A stretch of DNA of 11,727 nucleotides from a virus (UHGV-0322023), one strand, 5' to 3'; positions 6,242 through 11,727 are shown, numbered from the stretch's first letter. The notes: generated by a model not told the origin, from the letters alone. Numbers and translations: made by a program.

Positions 6242-6700
6242 ATGGCTTCCGATAACCTGGTCAGTATCACCATTAACGATAAATCCCTGCGCCGGAGCCT
6301 CCGTGCGCTGGACCTGGCTGCCACAGACCTGGAACCCGCGATGCGCAAAATCGCCGGAACCCTGCTGGCGGAAACACAGTTTAACTTTCTTGATGAGGGG
6401 CGTCCGGGGTGGATCCCCTCGCTGGCAGCGGAAGAACGTGACGGGCAGACACTGCAGGATACCGGGCGTCTGATGGGGTCAGTATCAACCGACCATGACG
6501 ACCGGCAGGCTGTTGTGGGGACCAACGTTGTTTACGGTGCCATTCACCAGTTCGGGGGTAAAACGGGGCGTAATGAGTCTGTTGAACTTCCGGCCCGCCC
6601 GTTCCTGCCGGTGACAGGGGATGGAGAACTACAGCCTGAAGTGGTAATCCCCATCCTCGATACCATTGTCCGCCATCTTGAATCAGCGGCCCGTCGCTGA
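6242..6700 (+). CDS. Virion morphogenesis protein (Mu G-like / Phage_tail_S family)
   Basis: 152-aa ORF starting 3 nt after the F-like stop, with AGAGGA 6 nt upstream. Position after the F-like gene and its size match Mu G. Confidence 0.7.
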   Translation: MASDNLVSITINDKSLRRSLRALDLAATDLEPAMRKIAGTLLAETQFNFLDEGRPGWIPSLAAEERDGQTLQDTGRLMGSVSTDHDDRQAVVGTNVVYGAIHQFGGKTGRNESVELPARPFLPVTGDGELQPEVVIPILDTIVRHLESAARR

Positions 6701-6914
6701 GGTTTCTCCCTTCAGGCGGGTGATTTATCATTGCCAGCGGATGAGGGGCTGTATTACCTTTATAAAGGCTTTACAGCCTCTGTTTTATAACCGCCTCCGG
6801 TTCACCGCATTGCTTTCCCTGTCCTTCTCTCCTGATGTTTTCTAAAGCAGATTAAAATCGCCGGGCCTGCATTTCTCACAAACTGTCTCCGACAACATAA
6901 CGCGGGACAGCAAA
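6701..6914 (+). promoter_or_regulatory. AT-rich noncoding island upstream of the protease/scaffold gene; candidate activator-dependent late promoter with an imperfect inverted repeat
   Basis: The only sizeable noncoding gap in the window. Contains the 8-bp palindrome TTTATAAA (6759-6766), a small hairpin AGGCT-TTAC-AGCCT (6766-6779), TTTTATAA (6783-6790) and a -10-like TAAAAT (6853-6858) about 55 nt upstream of ATG 6915. In Mu, a C-activated late promoter (P_I) sits upstream of gene I. Confidence 0.4.
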
Positions 6915-8030
6915 ATGTCAGCCATTCACATTTTTAAAGCCGGTACTCATACCGATATGCACGGCAAAAAACTGCCGTTCACGCCAGACGATCTTGCCGC
7001 CTGCGTGAAAGCCTATGACCCGTCCGTCCATGAAGCACCACTCGTGATTGGTCATCCCAGAACGGAAGACCCGGCGTGGGGCTGGGTGAAAGCCCTGTCG
7101 CTCAGCGGCGTCGATCTGATGGCAGAGCCTGCCCAGCTGGACCCGCAGTTTGCTGAGATGGTCACCGACGGACGATTCAAAAAAGTGTCCGCCTCTTTCT
7201 ACCTCCCGGATTCACCGTCCAATCCGAAGCCCGGCGTGCTCTACCTGCGCCATGTGGGCTTTCTCGGGGCACAGCCACCTTCCGTCAAGGGGCTGAAACA
7301 GGTGTCCTTCAGTGAGCAGGAAGAAGGTGTGGTGGAGTTCGCCGACTGGCAGGCCATCACGAATGCCTCCCTGTGGGGAAAGCTGCGCGATTTTCTGATC
7401 GCCCGCTTCAGTCTGGACGAAGCAGAAAAAGTCCTGCCGGAATGGCAGCTCAACAATCTGCGCGAAGAGGCGTACCGCGACACACCGTCGCAGGATGCAG
7501 CAGGTGCACAATTCAGTGAGACAGGCCCGGGGCCGTCTTCCGCAAGTAACGAGGAATCATCGATGACAAAAGAAGAGATTGAAGCCCTTCAGGAGGAGAA
7601 CCGCCGCCTGAAGCAGCAGGCTGCTGATCGCGATGCGCGTGATGCACAGGTCAGACAGGAGCAACTGCATAAGGACAATGTGGCCTTTGCAGAAAAACTG
7701 GTCGCAGAGGGCCGTCTGGCTCCCCGCGCCTCCTCCGTGGTGGTTGCCCTGCTGGATGCCGTCGCCGGTGGCGACAAGCCGGTGGAGTTTGCTGAGGGGG
7801 AAAGCCGCACACCGCTGGCGACCGCCTTTCGTTCATTGCTCTCCGACGGGGAGCCGGTGATGAATTTCGCCGAACAGGCCACAAAGGAGCGTGTCGGCGA
7901 CACGGTGAAGGTGGATGTGACGGAGTTTGCGGAAGCCGATCCTGAGCGTCTGGCCCTGCATCAGAAAGCAGTGGCCCTGTCGAAAAAAGAAGGCATCAGC
8001 TATGAGGCTGCTGTCGCACGCTGCCTGTAA
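6915..8030 (+). CDS. Prohead protease/scaffold protein (Mu I-like)
   Basis: 371-aa ORF. N-terminal domain (MSAIHIFKAGTHTDMHGKKLPF...PLVIGHP) is typical of Mu I-like proteases; C-terminal third is acidic, helical and coiled-coil-like (EEIEALQEENRRLKQQAADRDARDAQVRQEQ), as expected for a scaffold. Directly upstream of the major head gene. Confidence 0.85.
   Translation: MSAIHIFKAGTHTDMHGKKLPFTPDDLAACVKAYDPSVHEAPLVIGHPRTEDPAWGWVKALSLSGVDLMAEPAQLDPQFAEMVTDGRFKKVSASFYLPDSPSNPKPGVLYLRHVGFLGAQPPSVKGLKQVSFSEQEEGVVEFADWQAITNASLWGKLRDFLIARFSLDEAEKVLPEWQLNNLREEAYRDTPSQDAAGAQFSETGPGPSSASNEESSMTKEEIEALQEENRRLKQQAADRDARDAQVRQEQLHKDNVAFAEKLVAEGRLAPRASSVVVALLDAVAGGDKPVEFAEGESRTPLATAFRSLLSDGEPVMNFAEQATKERVGDTVKVDVTEFAEADPERLALHQKAVALSKKEGISYEAAVARCL
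7563..8030 (+). CDS. Possible nested, in-frame scaffold protein (Mu Z-like) from an internal start in the protease gene
   Basis: In-frame ATG at 7563 preceded by GAGGA (7551-7555) with about 7-nt spacing. The product (MTKEEIEALQEENRRLKQQ...) would be exactly the coiled-coil scaffold-like C-terminal domain. Confidence 0.4.
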   Translation: MTKEEIEALQEENRRLKQQAADRDARDAQVRQEQLHKDNVAFAEKLVAEGRLAPRASSVVVALLDAVAGGDKPVEFAEGESRTPLATAFRSLLSDGEPVMNFAEQATKERVGDTVKVDVTEFAEADPERLALHQKAVALSKKEGISYEAAVARCL

Positions 8031-10508: not shown

Positions 10509-11727
10509 CTATCTGCATGGCGTCGAAACCATTGAGGTGGAAAACGGAGCCCGCCCGGTTAAAACGGTGAAATCTGCCGTTATTGGCCTGATTGGTACCG
10601 CCCCGATGGGGGACGTCAATACGCTGGTGCAGTGCCTGTCTGAGAAAGATGCTGCTGCGTTTGGCAACCAGCTCACCGGCTTTACCATTCCGCAGGCGCT
10701 GGATGCGATTTATGACCATGGTGCAGGCACCGTTCTGGTCATTAACGTGCTTGATCCGGCTGTGCATAAAACCGCTGTGGCCGATGAAGATGTAGCGTTC
10801 GACAAGGCGACGGGCAAGGCACAGCTGGCTAATCCGGTGGTCGCGCAGCTGGTACTGAAACCGGACAACGATGGCCAGCCTTATGTGGAAGGTCAGGACT
10901 ACTCGCTTGATGCACAGACCGGGGCGATTACCAACCTCGGTAAGAGCATCGCGGCAGATGCAACGGTGAAGGCCAGCTATAACTATGCTGATCCAACTAA
11001 AGTCACCCCGGCTGATATCATCGGTGCCGTTAACGCGGCGGGCAACCGTACCGGTATGAAGCTGCTTAACGACAGCTTCAACCTGTTTGGTTACTTCGCA
11101 AAAATCCTGATTGCCCCGGTATTCTGCACCCAGAACAGCGTCTCGGTTGAGCTTATCGCCATGGCTGAGAAGCTGGGCGCGGTGACTTACATCGACGCGC
11201 CGATTGGTACCACTTTTGCTCAGGCTCTGGCGGGGCGTGGCCCGGAAGGCACCATTAACTTCAACACCAGCTCCGACCGCGTCCGTCTGTGCTACCCGCA
11301 CGTCAAGGTGTACGACGCGGTCACCAACAGCGAACGGCTGGAGCCGCTGAGCCAGCGTGCTGCAGGTCTGCGTGCCAGGGTCGACATGGACAAGGGTTAC
11401 TGGTGGTCGTCCTCCAACCAGGAGATTCTGGGTATCACTGGTGTGGAGCGCCAACTGTCAGCAATGATTGACGACCCGCAGAGCGAGGTGAACCTGCTCA
11501 ACGAACAGGGGATCACCACGGTATTCAGCAGTTACGGCAGCGGCCTTCGTCTGTGGGGTAACCGGACGGCAGCATGGCCAACGGTCACCCATATGCGTAA
11601 CTTTGAGAACGTAGCTCAGCAACAGGTGCCCGGCGGCCAGCTCCGTCTCCGGATTGCGGGCCGGATCAAACCAGCAACGGAAGCCCAGTACCGCACCATC
11701 ACCAGTCATTTTGCGACCGTAGGCGTT
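10498..11727 (+). CDS. Tail sheath protein (Mu L-like / P2 FI-like contractile tail sheath), 3'-partial (runs off the window end)
   Basis: ATG 10498 with a strong SD (GGAGGA 10487-10492, 5-nt spacer) and an open frame for 410 codons to the window edge. N-terminus MAANYLHGVETIEVENGARPVKTV parallels the P2 FI N-terminus (..YHHGVQVLEINEGTRVISTV..); also AGLRARVDMDKGYWW and GLRLWGNRT match sheath motifs. Not in the ORF track because there is no stop codon in the window. Confidence 0.85.
   Translation, partial: MAANYLHGVETIEVENGARPVKTVKSAVIGLIGTAPMGDVNTLVQCLSEKDAAAFGNQLTGFTIPQALDAIYDHGAGTVLVINVLDPAVHKTAVADEDVAFDKATGKAQLANPVVAQLVLKPDNDGQPYVEGQDYSLDAQTGAITNLGKSIAADATVKASYNYADPTKVTPADIIGAVNAAGNRTGMKLLNDSFNLFGYFAKILIAPVFCTQNSVSVELIAMAEKLGAVTYIDAPIGTTFAQALAGRGPEGTINFNTSSDRVRLCYPHVKVYDAVTNSERLEPLSQRAAGLRARVDMDKGYWWSSSNQEILGITGVERQLSAMIDDPQSEVNLLNEQGITTVFSSYGSGLRLWGNRTAAWPTVTHMRNFENVAQQQVPGGQLRLRIAGRIKPATEAQYRTITSHFATVGV

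What the first reader, a model, noticed from the sequence alone, without database searches (positions are those of the whole stretch)
6701..6914. Only noncoding island in the window: AT-rich region with an inverted repeat upstream of the protease/scaffold gene
Every other gene junction is coupled or separated by under 15 bp, but here there is a 214-bp gap with lower GC. It contains the palindrome TTTATAAA (6759-6766), a hairpin AGGCT-TTAC-AGCCT (6766-6779), which together with TTTTATAA (6783-6790) forms an imperfect ~32-bp inverted repeat, and a -10-like TAAAAT (6853-6858) without a convincing -35. That is the signature expected for an activator-dependent late promoter (Mu has a C-dependent promoter, P_I, at exactly this junction). 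The dyad could instead be a weak terminator or attenuator separating packaging from head-structural transcription, or an operator for a different regulator.
Basis: partly seen in the sequence, partly recalled or inferred. Interest (0 to 1): 0.5.

Follow-up and report, generated by a model that had tools for sequence, protein, structure and literature searches.

The report
Terminator plus Mor-activated late promoter
The 214-bp gap between two head genes of a Mu-like E. coli prophage most likely holds a transcription terminator for the upstream operon, then a promoter switched on by the phage's own Mor-type activator; this layout is already known from phage Mu, so it is a well-supported but ordinary regulatory junction.

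Summary
The window is the lysis/head region of a BcepMu-like transposable prophage found in 637 of 5426 complete E. coli genomes.

The elements were mis-assigned.
- TTTATAAA, AGGCT/AGCCT and TTTTATAA are pieces of one hairpin (6744-6781, dG -23.6, z -4.2) and its U-tract. This is a terminator-like structure at the same relative place as the predicted terminator in Mu's G-I gap.
- "TAAAAT" is not the -10. It overlaps the right half of a 16-bp dyad, TCTAA-AGCAGA-TTAAA (6841-6856).
- That dyad, a 23-nt spacer and the hexamer CAAACT (6879-6884) reproduce the Mor-dependent Mu Pm geometry. The dyad centre lies at -43.5 from a predicted start at A6892.

A matrix trained only on Mu, BcepMu and Pasteurella-phage sites ranks this site first of 80,714 positions in the prophage. 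Five further hits, all upstream of gene or operon starts, follow. The prophage encodes one Mor-family protein.

No transcription start, termination or activator dependence was measured. A Mu-like central gyrase site at 6716-6726 is possible but weakly supported.

The parts
6242..6700 (+). Mu G-like virion morphogenesis gene, the last gene of the upstream lysis/packaging operon.
   Evidence: ORF. Pfam Phage_tail_S PF05069, E = 1e-22. Annotated as phage virion morphogenesis protein in the identical E. coli record.
6716..6726 (+). Conserved GCGGGTGATTT, 16 nt after the G stop. Candidate core of a Mu-SGS-like gyrase site. This is speculative.
   Evidence: Identical to the centre of the 133-bp 'Mu SGS' fragment of Sutormin et al.. 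It matches wild-type Mu, D108 and SfMu at 10 of 11 positions, in inverted orientation. It is conserved with 0-2 mismatches in the E. coli/Klebsiella clade only. It lies 264 bp from the prophage centre.
6744..6781 (+). 38-bp imperfect palindrome forming an RNA hairpin: 10-bp outer stem, internal loop, CCUU/AAGG inner stem.
   Evidence: dG -23.6 kcal/mol, z -4.2, 0 of 200 shuffles fold as well. Hairpins occur at the equivalent place in relatives and in BcepMu and Mu. Mu's record annotates a predicted terminator at the same relative position. The core TTTATAAAGG(C)TTTAC is conserved as far as BcepMu.
6782..6790 (+). GTTTTATAA, the U-rich tract after the hairpin. Together they make a terminator-like signal.
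   Evidence: Read directly from the sequence. Mu's hairpin is likewise followed by GTTTTATC. The tract is not conserved in the 74% group.
6791..6832 (.). Variable, indel-rich spacer with no conserved element.
   Evidence: Alignment A4.
6836..6841 (+). T-rich stretch just upstream of the dyad, at about -56 to -51. Possible proximal UP-element subsite.
   Evidence: Invariant TTTT in relatives. In Mu Pm, positions -57 to -52 form a proximal UP subsite. This is an inference.
6841..6856 (+). 16-bp Mor-type dyad TCTAA-AGCAGA-TTAAA, the predicted binding site of the prophage's Mor-family activator.
   Evidence: Part of a 20-nt invariant block in relatives. The 14-bp core matches the Mu Pm Mor site GTAAAGCCGGTTAA at 11 of 14 positions. 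Literature definition of the Mor site. The pattern YTAA-N6-TTAA gives 10 matches at 6 sites in 40 kb against 0.8 expected. Top PWM hit at 31.6 bits.
6879..6884 (+). CAAACT, the predicted weak -10 hexamer, with A at position 2 and T at position 6. It lies 23 nt after the TTAA half-site.
   Evidence: Same spacing as TATCCT in Mu Pm. A nAnnnT hexamer sits at this spacing in all 9 training sites and in all 6 top prophage hits. It is conserved as CA(A/G/C)ACT in relatives while the spacer varies in sequence but not in length.
6892..6892 (+). Predicted transcription start, an A. This places the dyad centre (6848.5) at -43.5.
   Evidence: Inferred from the Pm geometry, verified on the Mu sequence against published numbering. 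Not measured.
6892..6914 (+). Predicted 23-nt leader with the Shine-Dalgarno GGGA at 6904-6907, 7 nt before the ATG.
   Evidence: Read from the sequence. Highly conserved in relatives.
6915..8030 (+). Mu I-like head protease/scaffold gene, the first gene of the head-structural operon.
   Evidence: ORF. 48.5% identical to BcepMu gp32, described as 'Mu I equivalent'.

Best explanation
The gap is the boundary between two late operons of a BcepMu-like transposable prophage. It has the same order of elements as the G-I gap of phage Mu.

(1) Terminator. RNA from the upstream lysis-packaging operon folds into the 6744-6781 hairpin followed by GUUUUAUAA. This probably terminates or attenuates transcription.

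(2) Promoter. About 60 bp further on lies a promoter with no -35 element. A dimer of the prophage's single Mor-family activator is predicted to bind the 16-bp dyad TCTAA-AGCAGA-TTAAA (6841-6856), centred at -43.5. It would recruit sigma-70 RNA polymerase to the weak -10 CAAACT (6879-6884). Transcription would start near A6892 and give a 23-nt leader with SD GGGA before the I-like gene.

(3) Regulon. The same site type precedes the holin operon, a tail-assembly operon, the baseplate gpW operon and the dam gene, and also reads divergently from the holin site. One activator made at the end of the early operon would therefore switch on all late functions, in a two-tier cascade rather than Mu's three tiers.

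Shown here: the sequence elements, their conservation, their geometry, their specificity within the genome, and the presence of a Mor gene.
Inferred: activator binding, the transcription start, termination, and timing.
For: Identity of the element
- The window is 100% identical to a prophage of E. coli R9 and 98.8% identical to phage PhiKM, a Bcepmuvirus.
- The prophage encodes one Mor-family protein (Pfam Mor, E = 5e-41).

The known system (literature)
- Mor and C dimers bind a 16-bp imperfect dyad made of two 5-bp inverted repeats separated by a hexanucleotide.
- The dyad is centred at -43.5. The promoters have a -10 but no -35.
- On the Mu sequence, Pm reads AGTAA-AGCCGG-TTAAT, then 22 nt, then TATCCT. 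This numbering was checked against the published positions -57G, -56T and -55 to -53 AAA.

The window site
- The window has the same layout, with an 11 of 14 match in the 14-bp core.
- YTAA-N6-TTAA gives 10 matches at 6 sites in the 40.4-kb locus against 0.8 +/- 1.2 in shuffles. Five of the six sites lie upstream of operon starts.

Cross-phage test
- A PWM was trained on 9 sites from Mu Pm, BcepMu and Pasteurella phage AFS-2018a.
- It ranks window 6842 first at 31.6 bits. P_lys, P_W, P_dam, P_3 and the divergent reading of the P_lys dyad follow at 23.4-29.4 bits.
- The next hit scores 16.0. The maximum over 20 shuffles was 16.3.

Footprint in relatives with ~74% identical I protein
- TTTTCTAAAGCAGATTAAAA is invariant. 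The spacer varies in sequence at constant length. The hexamer and leader are conserved.

Start-codon placement
- In five promoters the start codon lies 6-7 nt after the hexamer. These are E. coli/KP12 P_W, Pasteurella P_W, BcepMu P_I and P_W, and L045 P_I.
- This is expected only if that hexamer is the -10, giving leaderless mRNAs.

Terminator
- Hairpin z = -4.2.
- Hairpins followed by U-rich sequence occur after G in the L033-type relative, BcepMu and Mu; L030 has the hairpin without a U-tract.
- Mu's record annotates, in order, a gyrase cut site, a terminator and late promoter P_I in its G-I gap.
Against: - There are no transcript data. The start site, termination and Mor dependence are all inferred.
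- CAAACT matches TATAAT at only 3 of 6 positions.
- The dyad is weakly symmetric here (5-bp half-sites match at 4 of 5; 3 of 7 when extended), and its spacer AGCAGA is only half G/C.
- The BcepMu and Pasteurella training sites were picked by eye using the pattern first seen in E. coli. Only Mu Pm is truly independent.
- The U-tract is short, with 4 consecutive U. It is absent in L030-type relatives, and the hairpin sits elsewhere in the L032-38 group. Termination efficiency is therefore uncertain.
- Bases 6883-6890 can pair with the SD. This would matter only if transcription starts upstream of 6883.
- The activator protein is about equally distant from Mu Mor (29% identity) and Mu C (42% over 76 aa). 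'Mor-type' rests on the DNA site alone.
Confidence: 0.75

Rival explanations
1. TAAAAT (6853-6858) is the true -10. Transcription would start near 6865. The roughly 50-nt leader would contain a hairpin, CUGUCUCC pairing with GGGACAG, that hides the ribosome-binding site, so expression of I would also be controlled at translation.
For: - TAAAAT and TAATAT are 5 of 6 matches to the -10 consensus at the four + strand sites of the E. coli prophage.
- Complementarity to the SD is present at P_I, P_lys and P_3 and is retained in relatives. One A-to-G change keeps a U.G pair.
- The leader fold has z = -2.1.
Against: - The hexamer reads TAAAAG in all relatives of the 74% group, at the BcepMu P_lys and P_I sites, and in L045. 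It reads TAACAG at P_dam. All of these lose the essential final T.
- It is the right arm of a dyad whose left arm is equally conserved.
- This model does not explain the fixed 23-nt distance to a nAnnnT hexamer, nor start codons placed 6-7 nt after that hexamer.
- In Mu Pm the homologous TTAAT is experimentally part of the Mor site at -40 to -36.
- No -35 lies upstream of it.
Confidence: 0.1
2. The left part of the gap (core 6716-6726, with the A/T-rich 6750-6790 as one arm) is a central strong-gyrase-site analogue. It would help synapse the prophage ends for replicative transposition, as in Mu. This does not exclude the promoter or the terminator.
For: - In Mu the gyrase cut site lies 20 nt after the G stop, with a terminator and P_I downstream.
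- The Mu and FluMu site is stated to lie between gpG and gpI. A central position is required for its function.
- Here the core is 16 nt after the G stop and 264 bp (0.7% of the length) from the centre of the 38,151-bp prophage.
- GCGGGTGATTT matches the Mu core at 10 of 11 positions and is conserved in the clade.
- From my memory only: Oram & Pato 2004 (paper not held) found that the central site of the S. Typhi Mu-like prophage is cleaved by E. coli gyrase. That prophage is a BcepMu relative.
Against: - An 11-mer match with at most one mismatch between 133-bp and 214-bp sequences is expected by chance about 0.5 times (my calculation).
- The orientation is inverted relative to Mu.
- The core is absent from BcepMu and more distant relatives.
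- In the L032-38 group it is part of a hairpin stem and loop, which could explain its conservation.
- Two computational gyrase-site tests were uninformative because the Mu SGS itself did not stand out.
- By the same recollection, the S. Typhi site did not support Mu replication.
Confidence: 0.3
3. The 6744-6781 palindrome is an operator or auxiliary binding site for a phage or host DNA-binding protein, for example extra Mor half-sites of the TAAAG type, rather than a terminator.
For: - The core TTTATAAAGG(C)TTTAC is conserved from E. coli to BcepMu, although the I proteins are only 48.5% identical.
- It contains three TAAAG units resembling the Mor half-site.
- The Pasteurella phage has tandem TTAAAGC repeats 60-100 bp upstream of its P_I site.
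Against: - The half-site spacing is not the canonical N6, and no -10-like hexamer follows at 23 nt on either strand (reading of the sequence).
- In Mu Pm, sequences upstream of -57 do not affect activity.
- In BcepMu the same bases form the stem of a 13-bp hairpin followed by UUUGGUU, a typical terminator.
- CCTTTATAAAGG occurs only once in the prophage without mismatch.
Confidence: 0.12
4. The gap has no promoter. The I operon is expressed only by read-through from P_lys, and the conserved blocks reflect other constraints.
For: There are no direct transcript data. The -10 is weak.
Against: The site's first rank in the cross-phage PWM scan, its footprint-like conservation, and the identical architecture at four other intergenic late-gene junctions and in the experimentally defined Mu Pm.
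Confidence: 0.05

Closest known systems
Phage Mu middle promoter Pm (Mor-dependent)
   Same: - 16-bp imperfect dyad of two 5-bp repeats separated by a hexanucleotide, ending 22-23 nt before a -10 hexamer.
- No -35 element. A/T-rich bases just upstream of the dyad. Dyad centre at -43.5.
- The site sequence is close: Mu GTAAAGCCGGTTAA, BcepMu GTAAAGCCGATTAA, window CTAAAGCAGATTAA.
   Different: - In Mu this site type drives only the middle operon, which encodes C. A second activator, C, with different sites (for example TTATGCCCCAATAA at Pmom) drives the late operons.
- Here a single activator's sites sit directly before the lysis, head, tail, baseplate and dam genes.
- The -10 here (CAAACT) is weaker than TATCCT.
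Phage Mu late promoter P_I and the Mu G-I intergenic region
   Same: - Same genomic junction: G-like gene, then a gap of about 200 bp, then the I-like protease/scaffold gene.
- Same order of elements: a conserved core just after the G stop, a hairpin ending in GTTTTAT, then an activator-dependent promoter.
- Both gaps lie at the genome centre.
   Different: - There is no alignable sequence homology across the gap.
- Mu P_I depends on C, and its site does not resemble the one here.
Phage Mu strong gyrase site (SGS)
   Same: Position immediately after G and at the centre of the element. 10 of 11 identity to the cleavage-site core.
   Different: - The orientation is inverted.
- The similarity is within chance for its length, and no cleavage data exist.
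- Arm phasing could not be distinguished from background.
Rho-independent (intrinsic) terminators
   Same: A stable hairpin directly followed by a U-rich tract, downstream of the last gene of an operon.
   Different: The stem is interrupted by a 3x3 internal loop and has an A/U-rich apex. The U-tract has only 4 consecutive U. The standard scan caught only the small inner 5-bp version.

Membership tests
Mor/C-family activator-dependent promoter (Mu Pm type) | 16-bp imperfect dyad: two 5-bp inverted repeats separated by a G/C-rich hexanucleotide. | tested here: met
   TCTAA-AGCAGA-TTAAA at 6841-6856. The repeats match at 4 of 5 positions. The spacer is only 50% G/C. The 14-bp core matches the Mu Pm site at 11 of 14 positions.
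Mor/C-family activator-dependent promoter (Mu Pm type) | Dyad centred at -43.5 relative to the transcription start and overlapping the -35 region. | tested here: inconclusive
   The distance from the dyad to the -10-like hexamer is identical to Pm (TTAA + 23 nt + hexamer). This gives -43.5 if the start is A6892. The start itself is not measured.
Mor/C-family activator-dependent promoter (Mu Pm type) | A recognisable -10 hexamer and no -35 hexamer. | tested here: met
   CAAACT keeps A2 and T6 and is conserved as CAnACT. The sigma-70 scan finds no two-hexamer promoter on the + strand. The -10 is weak, at 3 of 6.
Mor/C-family activator-dependent promoter (Mu Pm type) | A cognate Mor/C-family activator encoded by the same element. 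| tested here: met
   L002 2112-2498 (-) matches Pfam Mor PF08765 with E = 5e-41. It is the only such gene in the prophage.
Mor/C-family activator-dependent promoter (Mu Pm type) | Transcription requires the activator, and the activator footprints about -56 to -36. | not testable with these tools
   Needs reporter fusions, EMSA or DNase I footprinting.
Mor/C-family activator-dependent promoter (Mu Pm type) | The same site recurs at the other promoters of the regulon. | tested here: met
   Six PWM hits at 23-32 bits, from five dyads upstream of gene or operon starts, against a shuffle maximum of 16.3. Pattern count of 10 matches against 0.8 expected.
Intrinsic terminator | A stable G+C-containing hairpin immediately followed by a U-tract. 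| tested here: inconclusive
   The hairpin is significant (dG -23.6, z -4.2). The tract GUUUUAUAA is short. Relatives have hairpins after G, but not always with a U-tract.
Intrinsic terminator | RNA 3' ends map to the U-tract. | not testable with these tools
   Needs Term-seq or 3'-RACE.
Mu-type strong gyrase site | Central location in the transposable prophage, between G and I. | tested here: met
   Prophage spans L002 783-38933, centre 19858. The core is at L002 20116-20126.
Mu-type strong gyrase site | Sequence related to the Mu SGS core, with a phased, bendable arm. | tested here: inconclusive
   10 of 11 core identity, but inverted and within chance. Periodicity near the site is at the 8-15% level, and the Mu control is only at 10-20%.
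Mu-type strong gyrase site | Strong, specific gyrase cleavage, and a requirement for rapid replication after induction. | not testable with these tools
   Needs Topo-seq or quinolone cleavage mapping and deletion mutants.

The most novel reading that the evidence does not exclude
Besides the terminator and promoter, the gap carries a functional central gyrase site (core 6716-6726) in a BcepMu-like E. coli prophage. The three-part node of gyrase site, terminator and activator-dependent promoter would then be a conserved design of transposable phages that share no sequence homology there. In addition, the complementarity between bases 6883-6890 and the SD would block translation of I on read-through RNA only. 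Several sister promoters (gpW in three lineages, I in BcepMu) would produce leaderless mRNAs from -10 hexamers held in the loops of GC-rich inverted repeats.
Probability: 0.25. Interest if true: 0.55.

Novelty: new member of a known kind. Interest (0 to 1): 0.35.

Why it matters
It gives a concrete, testable regulatory map for a prophage carried by about 12% of complete E. coli genomes.
- One Mor-family activator is predicted to act through a defined site (consensus TTAAAGC|GCTTTAA, then 23 nt, then nAnnnT).
- That site precedes the lysis, head, tail, baseplate and dam genes.
- The map suggests that BcepMu-like phages run a two-tier cascade using Pm-like sites where Mu uses a second activator.
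- The motif can be used to annotate late operons in related prophages of Klebsiella, Burkholderia and Pasteurella.
- It predicts leaderless late mRNAs.

The underlying mechanism is already well understood from Mu, so the finding extends a known system rather than revealing a new one.

Tried and rejected
- Rfam scan of 6400-7200 at permissive E-values returned only chance hits. The dam leader also had no family.
- The sigma-70 promoter scan found nothing on the + strand. The terminator scan caught only the small inner hairpin, at chance frequency.
- Small ORFs in the gap: a 59-aa TTG ORF that overlaps the end of G, and 25-aa and 27-aa ORFs on the minus strand. KP12 annotates a 41-aa ORF in the homologous gap. 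All were rejected because the middle of the gap is indel-rich in relatives.
- Global alignment of the gap with Mu's G-I gap showed no real homology.
- Scoring against the published 133-bp gyrase consensus, by exact matches and by S/W pattern: the Mu SGS itself did not stand out, so the test is uninformative. The true PWM table was truncated in the stored supplement.
- A/T helical-periodicity power: the uncalibrated values looked good (top 1-3%), but with a matched local-maximum null the Mu SGS is only at 10-20% and this gap at 8-15%. Not discriminating.
- Deciding 'Mor-like or C-like' from the activator protein was ambiguous: 29% identity to Mor, 42% to C over 76 aa.
- Oram & Pato 2004 and Margolin et al. 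1989 could not be read, as they are not held.
- One locus file (L002) was not available to the first scripts. Those analyses were redone later.

Full report
**1. What the window is**

The queried stretch is 100% identical to a prophage in E. coli strain R9 and 98.8% identical to Escherichia phage PhiKM, classified as a Bcepmuvirus. It is about 85% identical to Klebsiella phage KP12 and phage Phi06_2974 B. Similar DNA occurs in 637 of 5426 complete E. coli genomes.

The element is a Mu-like transposable prophage. I place its ends at L002 783-38933, which gives 38,151 bp with a 6-bp target duplication TCTGGC. The early operon is on the minus strand and ends with a Mor-family gene (Pfam Mor, E = 5e-41). 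The lysis, head and tail genes are on the plus strand.

The gap separates a Mu G-like gene (6242-6700, Pfam Phage_tail_S) from a Mu I-like protease/scaffold gene (6915-8030). The latter is 48.5% identical to BcepMu gp32.

**2. Check of the observation**

- The gap is 214 bp.
- GC falls to 0.47.
- Neighbouring junctions are 13 bp or less.
- There is no credible ORF and no Rfam family.

The small 5-bp hairpin is at chance level on its own. It is part of a larger 38-bp imperfect palindrome, 6744-6781, centred at 6762/6763. As RNA this folds at -23.6 kcal/mol, with z = -4.2 and 0 of 200 shuffles folding as well. TTTTATAA is not an arm of the palindrome. It is the T-run that follows it.

**3. The promoter**

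*A recurring pattern.* The region upstream of the holin gene in the same prophage shares a pattern with 6838-6890. The gaps before a tail-assembly gene and before gpW share it too. The pattern is YTAA-N6-TTAA, then 23 nt, then a hexamer nAnnnT.
- In the 34.7-kb PhiKM genome the dyad pattern occurs on the + strand exactly four times, at these four junctions. One further copy on the minus strand lies upstream of the dam methylase gene.
- In the 40.4-kb E. coli locus it gives 10 matches at 6 sites against 0.8 +/- 1.2 in shuffles.

*Conservation in relatives with ~74% identical I protein.*
- TTTTCTAAAGCAGATTAAAA is invariant.
- The next 13-14 nt vary in sequence but not in length.
- CA(A/G/C)ACTG and the leader are conserved.

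*Other lineages.* The same architecture is present in BcepMu itself (P_lys CTAAAGCCGATTAA, P_I GTAAAGCCGATTAA, and a gpW site). It is also in Pasteurella phage AFS-2018a, where the site is the perfect palindrome TTAAAGCGCTTTAA.

**4. Link to a characterised system**

The literature states that Mor and C dimers bind a 16-bp imperfect dyad. The dyad consists of two 5-bp inverted repeats separated by a G/C-rich hexanucleotide and is centred at -43.5. The promoters have a -10 but no -35. Pm also has a proximal UP subsite at -57 to -52.

On the Mu genome the Pm region reads ...CTGTAAAC-AGTAA-AGCCGG-TTAAT-(22 nt)-TATCCT-GTGATGA-A. The published bases -57G, -56T and -55 to -53 AAA fix the numbering:
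- dyad at -51 to -36;
- hexamer at -13 to -8;
- start 8 nt after the hexamer.

This is exactly the rule derived independently from the prophage. Applied to the window it gives:
- dyad 6841-6856, centre 6848.5;
- hexamer 6879-6884;
- start at A6892, which puts the dyad centre at -43.5.

Mu's C-dependent late promoters look different, for example TTATGCCCCAATAA at Pmom. The sites here are therefore Mor-type by sequence. The activator protein itself is about equally distant from Mor and from C.

**5. Cross-phage test**

A weight matrix was built only from Mu Pm, four BcepMu sites and four Pasteurella sites. It was scanned over both strands of the E. coli locus, 80,714 positions.

| Rank | Site | Strand | Score (bits) |
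|---|---|---|---|
| 1 | P_I (window 6842) | + | 31.6 |
| 2 | P_lys | + | 29.4 |
| 3 | P_W | + | 27.1 |
| 4 | P_dam | - | 25.6 |
| 5 | P_3 | + | 24.3 |
| 6 | minus-strand reading of the P_lys dyad | - | 23.4 |
| 7 | next hit | | 16.0 |

The maximum in 20 shuffles was 16.3.

One caveat applies. The BcepMu and Pasteurella training sites were chosen using the pattern first seen in E. coli. Only Pm is fully independent.

**6. Which hexamer is the -10**

Three observations favour CAAACT over TAAAAT.
- TAAAAT loses its final T in many homologous sites.
- It is one arm of a dyad whose other arm is equally conserved.
- In five promoters the start codon lies 6-7 nt after the downstream hexamer:
  - E. 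coli and KP12 gpW: AATACT-gccccc-ATG;
  - Pasteurella gpW: TAATAT-cagggct-ATG;
  - BcepMu gpW: CAACAT-ggccgc-ATG;
  - BcepMu I: GATGAT-gggcgcc-ATG;
  - L045 I: GAGACT-tcgaatc-GTG.

That placement makes sense only if transcription starts there, giving leaderless mRNAs.

**7. The upstream dyad**

Hairpins occur at the equivalent place in relatives.
- BcepMu has a 13-bp stem built from the conserved TTTATAAAGGCTTTAC core, followed by UUUGGUU.
- The L033 type has a 16-bp GC-rich stem followed by CCUUUAUAAAGG.
- Mu has CGGGAUUUU...GAAUCCCG followed by UUUUAUC.

The Mu record annotates three elements in order within its 196-bp G-I gap. They are a gyrase cut site 20 nt after the G stop, a predicted terminator, and late promoter P_I.

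The most economical reading is a terminator or attenuator for the lysis-packaging operon. Its strength is uncertain because the U-tract is short and is not conserved in L030-type relatives.

**8. Possible gyrase site**

*In favour.*
- GCGGGTGATTT (6716-6726) equals the centre of the 'Mu SGS' fragment used by Sutormin et al..
- It is conserved in the E. coli/Klebsiella clade.
- The gap lies within 0.7% of the prophage centre.
- Mu's SGS must be central and lies between G and I.

*Against.*
- Wild-type Mu, D108, SfMu and a Yersinia Mu-like phage have GCGGCTGATTT, so the match is 10 of 11.
- The match is in inverted orientation.
- Such a match is expected by chance about 0.5 times for these sequence lengths (my calculation).
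- The core is absent from BcepMu.
- Two computational tests failed their own positive control.

I recall that Oram & Pato 2004 found the central site of the S. Typhi Mu-like prophage to be cleaved by gyrase. That prophage is a BcepMu relative. The paper could not be read, so this remains a lead and not evidence. I give this non-exclusive reading about 0.3.

**9. Unexplained points**

- Bases between the hexamer and the predicted start can pair with the SD at P_I (6883-6890 with 6904-6910), P_lys and P_3, and in all relatives. With a start at 6892, only read-through RNA would carry the inhibitory arm.
- At several predicted leaderless promoters the -10 hexamer sits in the loop of a GC-rich inverted repeat.

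**10. Verdict**

The region is a new, well-supported member of a known kind. It consists of a terminator-like hairpin followed by a Mor-family-dependent promoter with Pm geometry, at the junction where Mu has its own terminator and P_I. All mechanistic steps remain inferred and need transcript mapping and reporter tests. These steps are activator binding, the transcription start, termination and timing.

Noticed in passing
L002 13063-13076 (upstream of holin ATG 13131; outside the window): A Mor-type dyad TTAACGCGCTTTAA has correctly spaced -10-like hexamers on both strands: GATGCT rightward and CAGGAT leftward. It looks like a bidirectional late promoter. In the 74% group the leftward side leads directly into the dam leader.
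   Followed up: partly
L002 32510-32561 (before the gpW/gp25 gene); also KP12, BcepMu ~30775-30825 and Pasteurella phage L062 28203-28255: The predicted -10 hexamer lies 6-7 nt before the ATG and no Shine-Dalgarno is present, so leaderless gpW mRNAs are predicted in three lineages. The hexamer sits in the loop of a GC-rich inverted repeat, for example GGGGGC[AATACT]GCCCCC.
   Followed up: partly
L002 11659-11472, minus strand (upstream of the dam methylase gene 10707-11471): A fifth Mor-type site, CTAAACCACATTAA followed at 23 nt by CATCAT, precedes a structured leader of about 130 nt before dam. The leader fold has z = -2.6 and there is no Rfam match. This may be an analogue of Mu's tightly controlled mom promoter.
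   Followed up: partly
L002 26130-26229: A canonical terminator, AGGGGCTCCGGCCCCTTTCTTCTT, sits immediately upstream of the Mor-type site before the tail-assembly gene. This repeats the terminator-then-promoter arrangement of the G-I gap.
   Followed up: no
L002 777-782 and 38934-38939: A 6-bp direct repeat TCTGGC flanks the prophage (5'-TGAAGGG...GCGCATCA-3'), which is inserted between ycbJ and elyC. Repeated GATAAATG-like motifs at both ends look like transposase binding sites.
   Followed up: partly
window 6883-6890 and 6904-6910: CTGTCTCC can pair with the SD region GGGACAG. Equivalent pairing exists at P_lys and P_3 and is retained in relatives. Its role depends on where transcription starts.
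   Followed up: partly
Sutormin 'Mu SGS' fragment compared with L064 17812-17944, L065, L066 and L067: The widely used 133-bp Mu SGS fragment differs from wild-type Mu, D108, SfMu and a Yersinia Mu-like phage by one base at the cleavage core (GCGGGTGATTT against GCGGCTGATTT). It may be a nuB-type up-mutation. The window carries the G version.
   Followed up: partly
L059 (KP12) 16646-16771: The KP12 record annotates a 41-aa hypothetical protein inside the homologous gap. The region is indel-rich among relatives, so this is probably an over-call.
   Followed up: partly
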